Shown here: positions 41,007-46,343 of the stretch, piece by piece
Layout: every line of letters begins with the position of its first letter
Position numbering within the stretch: the stretch's first letter is position 1
Assembly: GCF_024223415.1 (NCBI RefSeq)
Contig: NZ_CP100500.1
Origin: Escherichia coli
GTDB taxonomy: Bacteria > Pseudomonadota > Gammaproteobacteria > Enterobacterales > Enterobacteriaceae
Direction: 5' to 3' (one strand)
DNA: 64,000 nucleotides
Program-made: the position numbers and the translations under genes
The notes under the pieces: generated by a model
What the model was told of the DNA's origin: nothing
The model's input: the letters and a program-made list of their open reading frames with translations, nothing else
Databases searched by the model: none

Positions 41007-41216
41007 ATGACACTTGCTACCCGAGTAAAAAACCAGCGTAAGGCTCTTGGCCTGACGCAGGTTATGCTGGCAGAACGCACAGGGATTAGCCAGCAGGCCA
41101 TTAACCGCATTGAAAGCGGCCTTATATCCCGTCCCCGTTATCTGCTGGAAATAGCTGTTGCCCTGAACTGCGACCCTAACTGGCTGTTGCATGGTACTCC
41201 CGCGGATAAGACGTAA
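41007..41216 (+). CDS. Cro-like HTH regulator
   Basis: 69 aa; HTH (LGLTQVMLAERTGISQQAINRIESG); divergent from the CI-like gene. Confidence 0.8.
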   Translation: MTLATRVKNQRKALGLTQVMLAERTGISQQAINRIESGLISRPRYLLEIAVALNCDPNWLLHGTPADKT

Positions 41217-41219
41217 CTT

Positions 41220-43364
41220 ATGGCCCAGATCAATCTCTCATACGGCCGGGAACTGGTAGACAACCTTCCTGTGCCCTGTACTGATGCCGATTTTAACCGG
41301 ACATTTAAGCGTGTTAAAAAGTGGGCTCGTGCTATCGGCGCAACCAAACAGGATACAAAAAGCCAGCTTAACGCCAAAAAAGCGCGTCTGCCCTACATCT
41401 GGCACGCAATGAAGGACGTCACCAAAGGTCGTAACGCTGCTAATGCGGGCAACCGTGATGTGCTCTTCATGGATATGGACGGCTGTAACGCGCCTGCATG
41501 GGGCGCTTTACGCGATGCGCTGGCCTGTTTCTCATGTTTCACCTATTCAACGCCAAGTCATCTGCACCCCACTGCAAACGGGGAACATCGCTGGCGTATC
41601 TGCCTGGAGCTGAGTCGCCAGGTCACGCCCGAAGAGTACAAGCGTCTTGGCCTTGCGGTTGAAAACTGGCTGATGGATTGTATCAGCCTGCTGGACGATT
41701 ACACCGTCAAGTGGGACCACAGCGTTTACAACCCGGACCATATGGTTTTTGCCCCTGATGAAAAGGCCATCTTTGAACGTTTTACCGGGGAACCTGTTGA
41801 CGTTGATATCCTGTTGGCCAGCGCACCGGAAGTTACCATCCCTGAAAAAGCATCTTCCACAGACCGCGATGATTTGTCACGCGCTGTCGAACTGAACGGC
41901 ATCAGTCAGGAAACTTTTGACGACCTGCGCGAAGTGATGTGGCATCCGGCTGTACTGGCAGACGCTGAGCCGGGTTGCGGTAAATACCATAGCTGGGCGG
42001 CGATGGGAAATCGTCTGGCATGGTTTAAGGGAACCGACTGGGAAGACGCAGCCCGTCAGCTTTGGGTCGACTGGTCGATAGCGGGTGGTGGCGATGGCAT
42101 CAGCGCTGAACATAAATGGGACAGTAACCAGCTTACCGCCGAACGAACCGGTTACCAGGCCATTTTCGCCCATGCGCAGAAAGCAGGGGTCGCTAACCCC
42201 GCGACCGACCGTATGCGCGGTTTTGTCGCCGGTGCGAATGACTTCGACGAGTTGCCACCGGAAAAACCGGAGCTGCCAAAGTCCAGACCGCACACAGGCG
42301 GCTACGGTAAGCCGGGAAAGTTCATCATTGAAGGGATGGTGCCGCACGGGGTGACCATGCTCTATGGAGCTTCGTCATCGTTCAAATCCTATGGCGTTAT
42401 CTCCATGCTCTGCCGTGTGGCGACGAAAACTCATCGCTGGGGCGGGCGTAACCTCAAAGGTGGCGCTGTTCTGTATGTTGCCGCTGAGGGTGGCAGCTCC
42501 GTTATGCCGCGTGTCGGCGCATGGGCGGATAAGTACAATGACGGTAAGCCACTGGATTTGTTCTACACCCTGCCACTGGCGGTTGATCTCTCTGTCCCCG
42601 CAAACGTCACAAAGATGGTAAACGAGATTAAGCGCATAGCGTACCACACCGGCGAACCTGTCCGGCTTGTGGCCGTCGACACGCTGTCGCAGTCCATGAT
42701 GCAGGGCGAGGAAAACAGCGCCAGTGATGTGGCAAAATTCATGGCGGGCGCAACCAGGGTGTTCACCGAAACGGGCGCAGCGGTGATTATCGTTCACCAC
42801 AGCGGCAAAGACAGCAGTAAGGGGATGCGTGGCTCTTCTGCTGCCTTTGCTAACGCCGATGCGGTCATTCGCGTGGAACGCATCGGCGACGCGGTGAACC
42901 TGATTAACGAGAAACAGCGTACCGGTCCGGTACAGCCGACCCGCGGTTACATGGTACCGACAGTGCAGCTTCCTGACGACGTTATCGCGGCTAACGAAAC
43001 GTACGATGATGAGTATACCAGCACTGAAGGGGAAGTATATGACCCTGTAAGGCTTACCACCGAGCGCGTGTTTGAAGATGCACCAATGGCGGAGATCACC
43101 CCACTGCTGGTGGATAAGGGCGACGGGAATACCAAAGGCAGCAGCGATGAATCCTGGGTATGGGAAAAGCTGGAGGCCTCCGGCGGCAGCATCAACCGTT
43201 CTGCGCTTCGCGAGTTATGGAAGGATGAAACCGATAAAAGTACCGGTCAGTTACGTGCGGTTCTGGGGCGCATGAAAGAGAAGTATTACATCGTTGAGCG
43301 CGACGGCGTAATCAGGGATCCGCTATGCAATGGCGTACCACCTGGAGGGGATGAAATTGCTTAA
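41220..43364 (+). CDS. replication primase-helicase (N-terminal primase-like region + RecA/DnaB-like P-loop ATPase)
   Basis: 714 aa; Walker A-like (YGASSSFKSYG), RecA-like core (VLYVAAEGGSS...VIIVHHSGKD); immediately followed by an iteron-rich region. Confidence 0.7.
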   Translation: MAQINLSYGRELVDNLPVPCTDADFNRTFKRVKKWARAIGATKQDTKSQLNAKKARLPYIWHAMKDVTKGRNAANAGNRDVLFMDMDGCNAPAWGALRDALACFSCFTYSTPSHLHPTANGEHRWRICLELSRQVTPEEYKRLGLAVENWLMDCISLLDDYTVKWDHSVYNPDHMVFAPDEKAIFERFTGEPVDVDILLASAPEVTIPEKASSTDRDDLSRAVELNGISQETFDDLREVMWHPAVLADAEPGCGKYHSWAAMGNRLAWFKGTDWEDAARQLWVDWSIAGGGDGISAEHKWDSNQLTAERTGYQAIFAHAQKAGVANPATDRMRGFVAGANDFDELPPEKPELPKSRPHTGGYGKPGKFIIEGMVPHGVTMLYGASSSFKSYGVISMLCRVATKTHRWGGRNLKGGAVLYVAAEGGSSVMPRVGAWADKYNDGKPLDLFYTLPLAVDLSVPANVTKMVNEIKRIAYHTGEPVRLVAVDTLSQSMMQGEENSASDVAKFMAGATRVFTETGAAVIIVHHSGKDSSKGMRGSSAAFANADAVIRVERIGDAVNLINEKQRTGPVQPTRGYMVPTVQLPDDVIAANETYDDEYTSTEGEVYDPVRLTTERVFEDAPMAEITPLLVDKGDGNTKGSSDESWVWEKLEASGGSINRSALRELWKDETDKSTGQLRAVLGRMKEKYYIVERDGVIRDPLCNGVPPGGDEIA

Positions 43365-43369
43365 TTTTA

Positions 43370-43660
43370 CCAATTTGCAGAAAGCTACAAATTTGCATAA
43401 AAATGCAAAAATAAAATATATGCAATTTATTTGCATAAATAGTCAGCGCAACAAAAATTTTAAGCAGCAAGCGCAACACGATGCGCAACAGCGCAACAAA
43501 AAATGTTGCGCCGCTGATTTTAAAGGCTTTTTTAACCGCAACAAGAGCAACACGACGGCTAGCGTAGTGGCGCAACACAATACCCCTCTCCCCCCTTTAG
43601 GGGGGAGGGGTTTGTTGCGCCCGAGCCGTTGCGGTTTTTATTCATTTAAATGCATATGCA
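43370..43660. repeat. putative replication origin: AT-rich tract with TTTGCAT/ATGCAA repeats, GCGCAACA iterons (direct and inverted), and a GC-rich hairpin
   Basis: At least 6 copies of gcgcaaca or its complement within ~180 bp, preceded by an AT-rich block and followed by hairpin cccctctcccccc-ttta-ggggggagggg. Seen directly. Confidence 0.55.
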
Positions 43661-44386
43661 ATGCTGGTGAATGATAAGGGGGTGCAGATGCTGACAGCAA
43701 TCAACAACGAAAAAATTGTCATCGCAAGGGACGCGCAGAAACCGGGAATTTTCGCCTGCCCGGAATGTGGTGAAGTTGTCACCCTGCGGAAAGGTTCGGT
43801 GAAAGTTCACCATTTCGCCCATCGCAGCACCACATCCTGCGGTTACGGGAAAGGCGAATCTGAGTTGCACATGGATTTGAAAATGCAGGTCTATGACGCG
43901 TTGAACGCGCATCGTGAGGTGGAATATGTTGCGATGGAGGTCGCAGTCGGTGATGTTCGTCCCGATGTGCTGGCGATTATTCGGGGTCAGAAGGTTGCTT
44001 TTGAGATTCAGGTTAGTTCGCTGAGTATTGAAGACCTCTATCGCCGCACGGTTGCGTACGCAGCTCAGGACATTGCGATGATCTGGATCCTGCACTGGCC
44101 TGAAGGTACTGCACTGGACCGGCTTTATCACCCTGCATCATGGGAGCGATGGTTACATACTTGCGGAATGGCAACTCTGTACTTCTGGGCGGGCGATGGC
44201 TGGGTCAGGCCAGTGCGTCTGGGAAACCGACAACATGGATTACAAAGAGCACCTCGTGCCCATCTGGTTGATGATTTCGAACCAAAGCGAACAGGCGGGT
44301 GGATTAAAGGTGATTTTCTGATACCTGCTCGCTTTATCTGGAATCGTGTGCGACGGCAAAAACGTAGAGGTCAGAGCTATGCGTAA
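43661..44386 (+). CDS. CoiA-like / PD-(D/E)xK-type nuclease family protein
   Basis: 241 aa; CPECG zinc ribbon, HHFAH, and DVRPDVLAI...AFEIQVSS resembling competence protein CoiA-like nucleases. Confidence 0.5.
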   Translation: MLVNDKGVQMLTAINNEKIVIARDAQKPGIFACPECGEVVTLRKGSVKVHHFAHRSTTSCGYGKGESELHMDLKMQVYDALNAHREVEYVAMEVAVGDVRPDVLAIIRGQKVAFEIQVSSLSIEDLYRRTVAYAAQDIAMIWILHWPEGTALDRLYHPASWERWLHTCGMATLYFWAGDGWVRPVRLGNRQHGLQRAPRAHLVDDFEPKRTGGWIKGDFLIPARFIWNRVRRQKRRGQSYA

Positions 44387-44813
44387 TATTCAACAGGTTT
44401 TAGAGCGCTGGGGTGGCTGGGCTGCCAATAGCAACACCACAGTGAGCTGGGCTCCAATAGCGGCGGGATTTAAAGGGCTGGTAGTCAGCAGCCTGCCTGG
44501 CAGGCTGAGTTGCTGCGACGACGATGGCCTGATTATCGATGCTTGCGTCTGTCGGCTGCAGCAGGTCCGTAAGCCTGAGGAACTGGACGTCATTATGCTG
44601 TACTACGTCTACGGGTTAAGCAAACGTGAGATAGGACGGCGGCGTCGATGTTCTGAAGGATTTATCCGCCAGCAGTTGCAGGTAGCTGAGGGATTCATTG
44701 AGGGGTGTCTCTGCATGCTGGGTGTGAGCCTTCAGATGGATCCTGAGGTCGAAATTCAAAGGGATGAAAAAAGTATTAGTGCGCTACGCAAAAACTGCGC
44801 TACGCTGGTATGA
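44379..44813 (+). CDS. late-gene antiterminator Q (phage 21/82-type)
   Basis: ORF 44346..44813; probable start MRNIQQVLERWGGWAANSN...; position directly upstream of the lysis cassette. Confidence 0.7.
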   Translation: MRNIQQVLERWGGWAANSNTTVSWAPIAAGFKGLVVSSLPGRLSCCDDDGLIIDACVCRLQQVRKPEELDVIMLYYVYGLSKREIGRRRRCSEGFIRQQLQVAEGFIEGCLCMLGVSLQMDPEVEIQRDEKSISALRKNCATLV

Positions 44814-45407: not shown

Positions 45408-46343
45408 ATGGAACATAATAATGAAAAATCCAGAGAGCACTCTGGAAACAGCAAACATTATTCCATTGCTCATTCATTCGGCGGCTTTCGTGATGTAGTC
45501 GGACAGGGTGCTGAGAGAGAACAGGAGAGTAATACAATGACTCAAAACCATGAACTGGTTGTTAAAGGAACCCGAAATTTTGAGAATAAAATTGCGGTGA
45601 TTTTAACCCTGCGTGACAAAAAGCGTTTTGCCTGTGAGATATTTGACTTACACATCAACCTTGAACGACAGGAAGGCGCCACTCTGGAGTTTTATGAGTC
45701 AGAGGCAATAAAACGGGCAAAGACATTGTTCCGGGATGTTGCTGCAGGGTTATGTGAAGGGGACGAGCTGTCGCCGGAAAAGCGCCCCATAATTTTACAG
45801 GCGCACAATGTGTGGATAACCTACAAAGGAAAGCTACCGGGAAGAATTACTGGTTCTCTGAAGATGCCGCCGTCAACACTGCGGTCAGAAAAAGAGGCGT
45901 CTTGTCTGCAGTCTGAGTACTCCATTACGGTTAAAAGTGCCGGAGAGGAAGGAAATAAACGTTATTTTATTGCGTCTGCACCTGATAAAGATCAGGAATG
46001 GGAGTGTAACCGGCCATCCTTTGTTGTATACGGAGATGGCGGGAAAATAACCATCTCAGAAAATGGGAAATTAACACCGCCATCGCACCAGCATAGTGAG
46101 GCGCTCATTGAATTTGCCATTGATTACCTGAAGAACAATAAAAAGCAGGGGCTGATGAAGCGCATTGGTCGTTGCATGGGATATCTGCAGGTAGCAGCTG
46201 AGATTGAAATGATGGCCAGTGGTGCTGACAATGATGCAGTTGTGCTGGAGGCTCTTCTGCGTGATTTTGATAATACGCCCTTTAAGAAAGCACCTGTTGA
46301 CTGGATGCAGCCGGGGATGACTTATCTGAAAGGGCGTATATAA
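45408..46343 (+). CDS. hypothetical protein inserted between holin and endolysin (moron A; alternative start 45537)
   Basis: 311-aa ORF with RBS, starting 4 nt after holin stop; no recognisable motif; N-terminal 43 aa low complexity, so Met44 (MTQNHELVV..., RBS GGAGAG) may be the real start. Confidence 0.5.
   Translation: MEHNNEKSREHSGNSKHYSIAHSFGGFRDVVGQGAEREQESNTMTQNHELVVKGTRNFENKIAVILTLRDKKRFACEIFDLHINLERQEGATLEFYESEAIKRAKTLFRDVAAGLCEGDELSPEKRPIILQAHNVWITYKGKLPGRITGSLKMPPSTLRSEKEASCLQSEYSITVKSAGEEGNKRYFIASAPDKDQEWECNRPSFVVYGDGGKITISENGKLTPPSHQHSEALIEFAIDYLKNNKKQGLMKRIGRCMGYLQVAAEIEMMASGADNDAVVLEALLRDFDNTPFKKAPVDWMQPGMTYLKGRI

What the first reader, a model, noticed from the sequence alone, without database searches (positions are those of the whole stretch)
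43661..44386. CoiA-like putative nuclease between the origin region and Q
A zinc-ribbon plus PD-(D/E)xK-like protein at this position (where lambdoid phages carry nin-region morons) could be a recombination/repair nuclease or an exclusion nuclease. Function is not assignable by eye.
Basis: inference. Interest (0 to 1): 0.3.

Follow-up and report, generated by a model that had tools for sequence, protein, structure and literature searches.

The report
Short CoiA-type nuclease in phage replicon
This prophage gene encodes a small, intact DNA-cutting enzyme related to the bacterial competence nuclease CoiA, and it is inherited as one block with the phage's replication helicase and origin, so it probably processes branched phage DNA and is unlikely to be an accessory defence gene.

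Summary
A real gene lies here and encodes a zinc ribbon (CoiA_N) plus a PD-ExQ nuclease core (CoiA_nuc). Both Pfam domains score above their curated cutoffs, all Zn and catalytic residues are invariant across 22 homologs, and a confident AlphaFold model matches restriction-endonuclease-like folds. The true start is 43688, not 43661, giving 232 aa.

The "nin-region moron / exclusion nuclease" reading is not supported. The gene has no promoter or terminator of its own, its composition matches its neighbours, its stop overlaps the Q start, and its dN/dS is 0.11, like the adjacent helicase (0.12).

In E. coli, Salmonella, Xenorhabdus, Erwinia and Yersinia it always follows an AAA_25 primase-helicase and an iteron origin. 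Sister E. coli prophages replace exactly this block (window 41195-44358) with VapE- or D5-type helicase cassettes that lack the gene. In distant viral contigs it again follows primases or helicases of several unrelated families.

It is a short variant of CoiA. It lacks CoiA's long C-terminal region and instead has a ~95-aa domain with no known fold.

Best explanation (about 0.55, inferred): a structure-specific endonuclease that works with the replicon's RadA/DnaB-like helicase on forks, flaps or D-loops. No isolated phage carries it and no experiment exists.

The parts
43688..44386 (+). CDS of the short CoiA-like nuclease (232 aa).
   Evidence: All homologs start MLTA. The PGAP start in E. 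coli F1022 is equivalent. An SD AAGGGGG lies at 43676-43682. dN/dS is 0.11.
43736..43843 (+). N-terminal zinc ribbon (CoiA_N), with ligands C24, C27, H42 and H45
   Evidence: PF25164 scores 49 bits, above its cutoff. The ligands are invariant in 22 sequences and in Bacillota CoiA.
43856..44095 (+). PD-ExQ nuclease core (alpha-beta-beta-beta-alpha-beta), with E57, H61, K65, E84, D93, E106, Q108, R120
44096..44383 (+). Family-specific C-terminal beta-rich domain (aa 137-232; invariant W152, E153, F197, P213). The last ~9 codons derive from the shared Q leader.
43365..43660 (.). Origin-like intergenic region: an AT-rich tract, the GCGCAACA iteron 5x direct and 2x inverted, and a long palindrome at 43569-43621 with a G/C hairpin core
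   Evidence: DNA fold -24.8 kcal/mol, z = -5.4. The architecture is conserved, but the iteron sequence differs by lineage.
41220..43364 (+). Primase-helicase (714 aa, AAA_25 ATPase domain), the upstream partner in the cassette
   Evidence: PF13481 scores 98.9 bits. PHROG matches are helicase-primase and DnaB-like families. It is always upstream of the CoiA-like gene in the enterobacterial clade.
41195..44358 (+). Exchangeable replicon cassette (primase-helicase + ori + CoiA-like), defined by homology breakpoints with sister prophages
   Evidence: blastn breakpoints against ECONIH2 and B771. Their annotation shows VapE or DUF5906 helicases and no CoiA-like gene.
44379..44813 (+). Q antiterminator. 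Its ATG overlaps the CoiA-like stop codon by 8 nt.
   Evidence: Phage_antitermQ scores 169.8 bits. Sequence. PGAP start.

Best explanation
The gene encodes a catalytically intact, short member of the CoiA nuclease family: a Zn ribbon, a PD-ExQ restriction-endonuclease-like core, and a private ~95-aa C-terminal domain. It is a delayed-early gene. It is transcribed rightward through the primase-helicase and the origin and is translationally coupled to Q. It forms one heritable replicon cassette with an AAA_25 (RadA/DnaB-like) primase-helicase and that helicase's iteron origin.

Shown here: the domain architecture, the conserved active site, the fold, purifying selection, the synteny, the cassette boundaries, and the absence of moron or defence hallmarks.

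Inferred: by analogy with pneumococcal CoiA, the phage enzyme cuts branched DNA produced when the phage helicase unwinds DNA, such as forks, flaps, D-loops of recombination-dependent replication, or branches in concatemers. Pneumococcal CoiA is a monomeric structure-specific endonuclease that nicks at 5' ss-dsDNA junctions of flaps, forks, bubbles and D-loops and acts synergistically with the DnaB-type helicase RadA. Such cutting would stabilise or extend replication intermediates and leave unbranched DNA for packaging. The gene also occupies the slot just upstream of Q, where, from general knowledge of lambdoid phages, those phages carry Rap/NinG or RusA.
Against: No experiment exists on this protein or on any member of the short family. 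No isolated phage carries it. The substrate is inferred from a homolog that is 28-38% identical only over the first ~140 residues, and the C-terminal domains differ. Sister prophages manage without the gene, so it is not generally essential. In chromosomal copies from cyanobacteria and proteobacteria there is no helicase neighbour. Helicase adjacency in phages could partly reflect the general clustering of DNA-metabolism genes, and I ran no formal background control. One distant locus pairs the gene with a D5-type helicase, so the link is not exclusive to AAA_25. CoiA-like alleles and helicase alleles are not strictly co-diverged: Erwinia is 75% (helicase) against 48% (CoiA-like).
Confidence: 0.55

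Rival explanations
1. Origin-processing nuclease. The enzyme recognises the palindrome or cruciform (G/C hairpin flanked by inverted iterons) in the adjacent origin and nicks it. This either loads the ring helicase or provides a 3' end, starting or switching the mode of replication.
For: The gene lies immediately downstream of the origin in every enterobacterial lineage. The palindrome 43569-43621 is very stable (z = -5.4). It is conserved with compensatory changes across four iteron types. It is absent from the VapE and DUF5906 cassettes that lack the gene. A distant Toprim-helicase phage (L010) also has an iteron array between helicase and CoiA-like. CoiA nicks supercoiled plasmid and ss-ds junctions.
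Against: CoiA-like divergence does not track iteron type, whereas the helicase C-terminus does. The hairpin could simply be a transcription terminator or attenuator ahead of Q. L021 and L024 show no clear iteron or hairpin structure. Chromosomal family members have no origin nearby.
Confidence: 0.12
2. Superinfection-exclusion or defence nuclease. It would be expressed from the prophage and would cut incoming phage DNA.
For: The CoiA_N zinc ribbon also occurs in the defence proteins DruB and PD-lambda-4B. The gene is rare in E. coli, in 1 of 5,426 genomes. One homolog lies near Abi_C, and another near a ubiquitin-like/ThiF system on a conjugative element.
Against: Only the Zn ribbon is shared with the defence proteins, and no partner genes are present. 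No full-length PADLOC model matches. The gene has no promoter or terminator of its own, overlaps Q, and has the composition of its neighbours. It has ancient strict synteny inside the replication operon. It would be repressed in the lysogen together with the helicase.
Confidence: 0.1
3. Host-takeover or anti-defence nuclease, or a 5'-flap/primer-removal enzyme for lagging-strand maturation. These are other lytic-cycle DNA roles that do not depend on the helicase.
For: The gene's position is delayed-early. It recurs next to primases, including Prim-Pol, Toprim and D5. CoiA slightly prefers 5' flaps.
Against: Sister phages with other primase-helicases lack it. The host provides Pol I and RNase H (general knowledge). 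Nothing suggests non-specific DNA degradation, since CoiA barely cuts ssDNA and only nicks plasmid.
Confidence: 0.12
4. Free-standing homing endonuclease or other selfish insert.
Against: The gene co-diverges with its flanks over 41-100% identity at a fixed position, with dN/dS 0.11. Presence or absence is explained by exchange of the whole cassette, not by a gene-sized indel. The family also has stable chromosomal copies.
Confidence: 0.04

Closest known systems
CoiA (Streptococcus pneumoniae CoiA / Bacillus subtilis YjbF; Pfam PF25164 + PF06054), the competence-specific D-loop resolvase of Bacillota
   Same: The N-terminus (MLTA...) is the same. So are the CxxC...HxxH zinc ribbon and the PD-ExQ active site with a conserved E in helix 1 and a conserved Arg. 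Homology over aa 1-140 is certain (hhalign 99.9%, E = 5e-31). Each is encoded or used alongside a RecA-fold AAA_25/DnaB-type helicase.
   Different: This protein is 232 aa, against 313-420 aa. It matches only profile positions 1-80 of 158 in CoiA_nuc. It lacks the ~180-aa CoiA C-terminal region (PF25165/PF25166 in some) and has its own ~95-aa domain of unknown fold. It is encoded in a phage replicon cassette of Enterobacterales, not in the mecA-coiA-pepF competence context of Bacillota. Its activity is untested.
Lambdoid structure-specific endonucleases encoded just upstream of Q (Rap/NinG, RusA)
   Same: It sits immediately before Q in the delayed-early operon and is predicted to cut branched DNA (inference; the lambdoid gene order is from general knowledge).
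   Different: There is no sequence relationship, with no NinG, NinB or RusA Pfam match. The fold family differs from RusA. The phage's replication module is PolA/DUF2800/Enc34-SSB/VRR-NUC/primase-helicase, not lambda O/P.
CoiA_N-containing defence proteins: Druantia DruB and PD-lambda-4B (Vassallo et al. 2022, PMC9519451)
   Same: They share the N-terminal zinc ribbon (PADLOC DruB E = 9e-6 over aa 15-58; PD-lambda-4B matches CoiA over residues 1-66).
   Different: Those proteins do not share the PD-ExQ nuclease core with this one, and the similarity stops after the ribbon. They are multi-gene systems whose partners (DruA/C/D/E; the PD-lambda-4A ATPase) are absent here.
Other PD-(D/E)xK phage and repair nucleases (VRR-NUC, Hjc, Vsr-like, TT1808/Uma2)
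   Different: Sequence identity is 9-15%. They have no CoiA_N ribbon and different active-site variants. The same prophage type separately encodes a VRR-NUC protein on its left arm.

Membership tests
CoiA family (Bacillota competence nuclease) | N-terminal C2H2-type zinc finger/ribbon (CoiA_N, PF25164) | tested here: met
   49 bits against a cutoff of 26.3. C24, C27, H42 and H45 are invariant and align to the Bacillota CoiA ligands.
CoiA family (Bacillota competence nuclease) | PD-ExQ active site (D in beta2, ExQ in beta3; D95/E105 in S. pneumoniae) plus a conserved Arg | tested here: met
   RPD93V...AFE106IQ108...R120 are invariant in 22 sequences and aligned to RPDLL...AIEIQ...ERT of Enterococcus CoiA. 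The motif definition comes from PMC1189080 and the preprint.
CoiA family (Bacillota competence nuclease) | Full-length CoiA_nuc domain (PF06054, 158 positions) | tested here: not met
   Only profile positions 1-80 match here and in P0013 and P0022. Enterococcus CoiA matches positions 1-153.
CoiA family (Bacillota competence nuclease) | Long C-terminal region (total length ~313-420 aa; PF25165/PF25166 in some) | tested here: not met
   The protein is 232 aa. Its C-terminal 96 aa match no Pfam family. The profile-profile alignment fades after aa ~140.
CoiA family (Bacillota competence nuclease) | Chromosomal competence-regulon gene of Bacillota (e.g. the mecA-coiA-pepF context) | tested here: not met
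   Here the gene is in a prophage replicon cassette in E. coli. The canonical context is seen in L043.
CoiA family (Bacillota competence nuclease) | Structure-specific endonuclease activity at 5' ss-dsDNA junctions / D-loop resolution, with RadA synergy | not testable with these tools
   This needs biochemistry and genetics. Only adjacency to an AAA_25 helicase is shown.
PD-(D/E)xK (restriction-endonuclease-like) superfamily | alpha-beta-beta-beta-alpha-beta core fold with acidic residues on beta2/beta3 | tested here: met
Lambdoid nin-region recombination proteins (NinB/Orf, NinG/Rap, RusA) | Sequence membership in the NinB, NinG or RusA families | tested here: not met
   No such Pfam, PHROG or NCBIfam match at E <= 1.
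Phage moron / accessory gene | Own promoter and terminator, atypical composition, presence or absence as a single-gene insert | tested here: not met
   There is no + strand promoter-like site upstream and no terminator downstream. GC is 0.51-0.53, like its neighbours. Absence in sister prophages is due to exchange of the whole 3.2-kb cassette.
Known anti-phage defence systems (PADLOC-DB v2; Druantia, PD-lambda-4) | Full-length match to a defence protein model and presence of the system's partner genes | tested here: not met
   There is only an N-terminal 44-residue match to DruB. The neighbours are a helicase and Q. PD-lambda-4B shares only the ribbon.

The most novel reading that the evidence does not exclude
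The primase-helicase, the iteron origin with its conserved G/C cruciform, and the CoiA-type nuclease may form a three-part replicon. In it, the structure-specific nuclease would nick the extruded origin palindrome (or the first D-loop) to load the RadA/DnaB-like ring helicase or to prime DNA synthesis. This would be a nick- or D-loop-initiated phage replication mode that uses a 'transformation' resolvase. It would also imply that helicase/CoiA pairs are an ancient mobile module that extends well beyond Bacillota competence.
Probability: 0.12. Interest if true: 0.7.

Novelty: new variant of a known kind. Interest (0 to 1): 0.42.

Why it matters
CoiA was only recently shown to be a D-loop resolvase that works with the RadA helicase, and it was described as restricted to Bacillota. 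This finding shows a large, uncharacterised short form of the same nuclease: 496 clusters at 50% identity with E <= 1e-30. It occurs in Proteobacteria, Cyanobacteria and other phyla, and in viruses. In phages it is physically linked to replicative primase-helicases, and here it forms one exchangeable cassette with an AAA_25 helicase and its origin. If the helicase-nuclease partnership holds, it would extend the 'helicase/nuclease pair' idea from natural transformation to phage replication. It would also provide a compact, genetically tractable E. coli system (three natural cassette variants at one locus) for studying how such pairs cooperate. At a practical level, the database name 'competence protein CoiA' is misleading for these prophage genes.

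Tried and rejected
1. I asked whether CoiA-like is the iteron-specific origin binder. Rejected. Erwinia shares the E. coli iteron GCGCAACA but its CoiA-like protein is only 48% identical, whereas Xenorhabdus (56%) has a different iteron. The helicase C-terminal ~50-100 aa tracks iteron type instead. This rests on only five lineages.

2. Megablast and tblastn against 50,697 phage records found no usable isolated phage homolog. Three of the four weak hits are UNVERIFIED_ORG contigs, and the one examined in detail is Enterococcus chromosome.

3. The sequence search of the PDB found only zinc-finger noise for the nuclease and nothing for the helicase.

4. The AFDB50 fold library was unavailable.

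5. I expected the primase/helicase adjacency to hold family-wide. It does not. The neighbours at 20 reference-genome loci are heterogeneous housekeeping genes.

7. NCBIfam and PHROGs gave no family for the protein.

8. I considered exclusivity of the AAA_25 pairing. It is contradicted by L028 (D5-type) and by the Prim-Pol and Toprim partners.

Full report
**The observation**

The window has an ORF at 43661-44386 (+), 241 aa. Pfam finds two domains in it above their curated cutoffs. CoiA_N (PF25164) scores 49 bits, and CoiA_nuc (PF06054) scores 54.5 bits over model positions 1-80 of 158. PHROGs and NCBIfam give nothing useful.

The start should be moved to 43688. All 22 homologs in alignment A1 begin MLTA. 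PGAP uses the equivalent start in the 99.6%-identical gene of E. coli F1022. An AAGGGGG Shine-Dalgarno lies 5 nt upstream of that ATG. The product is 232 aa.

Upstream, at 43365-43660, there is an AT-rich tract, the octamer GCGCAACA five times direct and twice inverted, and a long palindrome. Downstream is a Q antiterminator (170 bits) whose ATG at 44379 overlaps the nuclease stop codon by 8 nt.

**What the protein is**

Numbering below is for the 232-aa protein. The invariant residues across 22 sequences (31-84% identical to the query) are these:
- C24, C27, H42 and H45, the zinc ligands.
- E57, H61 and K65, in helix 1.
- E84, D93, E106 and Q108, the PD-ExQ set.
- R120 and T121.
- W133, W152, E153, F197 and P213.

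PD-ExQ is the active-site variant described for CoiA in 2005 (PMC1189080). D and E are the residues whose mutation kills pneumococcal CoiA (D95A, E105A; bioRxiv 10.1101/2024.02.06.579203).

dN/dS against the Salmonella ortholog is 0.11, equal to the neighbouring helicase at 0.12.

**Relationship to authentic CoiA**

A record labelled as an Enterococcus phage (UNVERIFIED_ORG) turned out to be chromosome with the canonical mecA-coiA-pepF arrangement. It supplied a real CoiA of 392 aa. That protein has CoiA_N, the complete CoiA_nuc model (positions 1-153 of 158) and about 180 further residues.

Bacillota CoiAs are 313-420 aa, and some carry PF25165 or PF25166 at the C-terminus. Profile-profile comparison of A1 with 22 Bacillota CoiAs gives 99.9% probability and E = 5e-31, with every Zn and catalytic residue shared. 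The alignment fades after residue ~140.

So this is a homolog of CoiA over the ribbon and the catalytic core. It fails three defining features of the Bacillota protein: the full nuclease-domain model, the long C-terminal region, and the competence context.

**How common it is**

The gene is locally rare. It occurs in 1 of 5,426 complete E. coli genomes. It occurs in none of 50,697 deposited phage genomes at DNA level, and only four show weak partial protein hits. IMG/VR has a 100%-identical copy (L014) and 27 other loci.

Globally the short architecture is a large family. An exhaustive HMM search finds 496 clusters (50% identity) at E <= 1e-30, mostly 240-270 aa and matched end to end. A scan of one genome per species finds it in these groups:
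- Enterobacterales.
- Burkholderiales.
- Ferrimonas, Kistimonas and Rheinheimera.
- Alphaproteobacteria.
- Four cyanobacterial genera.
- Nitrospirales.
- Phycisphaerales.
- One Methanophagales MAG.

CoiA-type nucleases are therefore not confined to Bacillota, as the preprint's stricter census suggested.

**Genomic context, the main new evidence**

The gene order is invariant in E. coli, Salmonella, Xenorhabdus, Erwinia and Yersinia, where the protein is 41-77% identical. The order is S24 repressor, Cro-like HTH, a ~600-720-aa AAA_25 primase-helicase, a ~270-330-nt gap, CoiA-like, Q, then lysis. The structural modules differ entirely: lambda-like, Mu-F/portal_3, P22 portal, and myovirus.

The gap has a conserved architecture but lineage-specific iterons:
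- GCGCAACA in E. coli, Salmonella and Erwinia.
- CGTGACA in Xenorhabdus.
- GTGTGCC in Yersinia.
- GCGGGACA in L016.

In each case a G/C hairpin is flanked by inverted iterons. Iteron type tracks the last ~50-100 residues of the helicase and does not track CoiA-like.

Sister E. coli prophages are decisive. ECONIH2 is homologous up to window 41194, 26 nt before the helicase start, and again from 44359, 27 nt before the nuclease stop. In between it carries a VapE-type helicase, its own GGTACA iterons, and no nuclease. B771 carries a Prim-Pol+DUF5906 helicase, GGTAACAG iterons and a 76-aa ORF.

So [AAA_25 helicase + ori + CoiA-like] is one exchangeable replicon cassette, window 41195-44358. The last ~9 residues of this window's protein are read from the shared Q leader at the junction.

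The gene has no promoter-like site of its own on its strand, no terminator after it, and the GC content of its neighbours. None of this fits a moron.

**Distant relatives**

I examined 13 viral or metagenomic loci with full-length homologs at 28-40% identity. Seven have a large primase or helicase on the same strand, directly upstream or one small ORF away. These belong to unrelated families:
- Toprim (L010).
- XPD-like DEAD (L013).
- AAA_25 (L019).
- Prim-Pol (L021, L024).
- Prim-Pol + AAA_25 (L027).
- D5_N/DUF5906 (L028).

Prim-Pol and AAA_25 are the commonest neighbour families in that set. L010 also has an iteron array between the helicase and the nuclease.

By contrast, the neighbours at 20 reference-genome loci outside the Enterobacterales are heterogeneous housekeeping genes. 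The helicase link therefore belongs to the viral copies, and I did not run a formal background control for it.

**Mechanism**

Pneumococcal CoiA is monomeric. It nicks supercoiled plasmid and barely cuts ssDNA. It cleaves at the 5' ss-dsDNA junction of flaps, forks, bubbles and RecA-made D-loops, and it acts synergistically with the DnaB-type helicase RadA. E. coli RadA's ATPase domain is itself a Pfam AAA_25 member at 55.9 bits, the same family as the cassette helicase at 98.9 bits.

The best-supported reading (confidence about 0.55) is a helicase-associated, structure-specific endonuclease. It would process branched replication or recombination intermediates of this replicon. It sits in the slot just before Q, which Rap/NinG or RusA occupy in lambdoid phages (the lambdoid gene order is from general knowledge). 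The architecture, active site, selection and linkage are shown here. The substrate and the partnership with the helicase are inferred.

The rivals are as follows:
- **Origin-palindrome nicking (0.12).** The hairpin co-occurs with the gene and is absent from cassettes that lack it. However, the nuclease does not covary with the iterons, and the hairpin may simply be a terminator.
- **Defence or exclusion (0.10).** Only the Zn ribbon is shared with DruB and PD-lambda-4B.
- **Other lytic DNA roles such as flap or primer removal (0.12).**
- **Homing endonuclease (0.04).**

**Verdict**

The gene is a new short variant of a known family in an unstudied context. It has moderate interest (0.42), mainly for the cassette-level link between a CoiA-type nuclease and a RadA-like helicase.

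Noticed in passing
window 43365-43660 (also L002 7683-8003, L004 7742-8003, L006 7674-8003, L008 7729-8003, L016 9650-10010): There is an origin-like gap with lineage-specific iterons: GCGCAACA, CGTGACA, GTGTGCC and GCGGGACA. A conserved G/C hairpin is flanked by inverted iterons. Iteron type tracks the C-terminal ~50-100 aa of the primase-helicase, which suggests that this is the origin-binding domain.
   Followed up: partly
window 43330-43674 (+); L001 19691-20014; L002 7675-8007: PGAP and other gene callers annotate a 107-114-aa 'hypothetical protein' across the iteron/origin region. It is low-complexity and is not called in the Xenorhabdus, Erwinia or Yersinia loci. It is probably a spurious ORF.
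   Followed up: partly
window 41195-44358 against L106 (E. coli ECONIH2) and L107 (E. coli B771): There are three alternative replicon cassettes at one prophage locus: AAA_25 helicase + CoiA-like, VapE helicase, and Prim-Pol/DUF5906 helicase + a 76-aa ORF. Each has its own iterons, and the recombination breakpoints are sharp. The immunity region (repressor/cro) is a separate exchangeable block: window and F1022 differ between about 39752 and 41376.
   Followed up: yes
L042 (OR847541.1), L043 (OR846601.1), and OR849341.1 in the 'phages' collection: GenBank 'UNVERIFIED_ORG' wastewater 'Listeria/Enterococcus phage' records carry Bacillota chromosomal genes. L043 has mecA-coiA-pepF. L042 has spx- and mecA-like ORFs upstream of its CoiA match, which was not called as a complete ORF. 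They are probably bacterial contigs, not phages.
   Followed up: partly
window 41226-42248 (primase-helicase residues 3-343): The N-terminal 343 aa of the primase-helicase are ~48% identical to protein P3 of the Hamiltonella defensa APSE phages. There this region is fused to a VirE/VapE-type helicase instead of AAA_25, so the N-terminal and helicase domains are shuffled.
   Followed up: no
window 45408-46340 (+): A 311-aa ORF lies between the holin and the lysozyme, with an N-terminal DUF1327/YdfR-like domain and a C-terminal phrog_1085 region. In E. coli F1022 the equivalent is annotated as a truncated YdfR-family pseudogene.
   Followed up: no
alignment A1, columns ~230-262: The closest clade (E. 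coli, Salmonella, Xenorhabdus) lacks a ~15-30-residue segment (GGY...SKRxRT) that is present in the Erwinia/Yersinia forms and in all the more distant members. This is a lineage-specific deletion in the C-terminal domain.
   Followed up: partly
L010 7700-7980: In a distant 72-kb viral contig, the gap between a Toprim primase-helicase and its CoiA-like gene holds opposed iteron arrays (ACCTACCTT / AGGTTGGTAA). They flank an alternating CG/CA (Z-DNA-prone) tract.
   Followed up: partly
L004 10846-11088 (Xenorhabdus prophage): A small gene with an Acb2/Tad1-hairpin domain (anti-CBASS/anti-Thoeris sponge family) sits just after the lysis genes of the Xenorhabdus relative of this prophage.
   Followed up: no
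L011 (37.6-kb contig): One family member lies on a conjugative-element-like contig next to a TrwB/TraG coupling protein and a Replic_Relax protein. It is near a ubiquitin-like/ThiF/JAB gene set. So the family is also carried by non-phage mobile elements.
   Followed up: no
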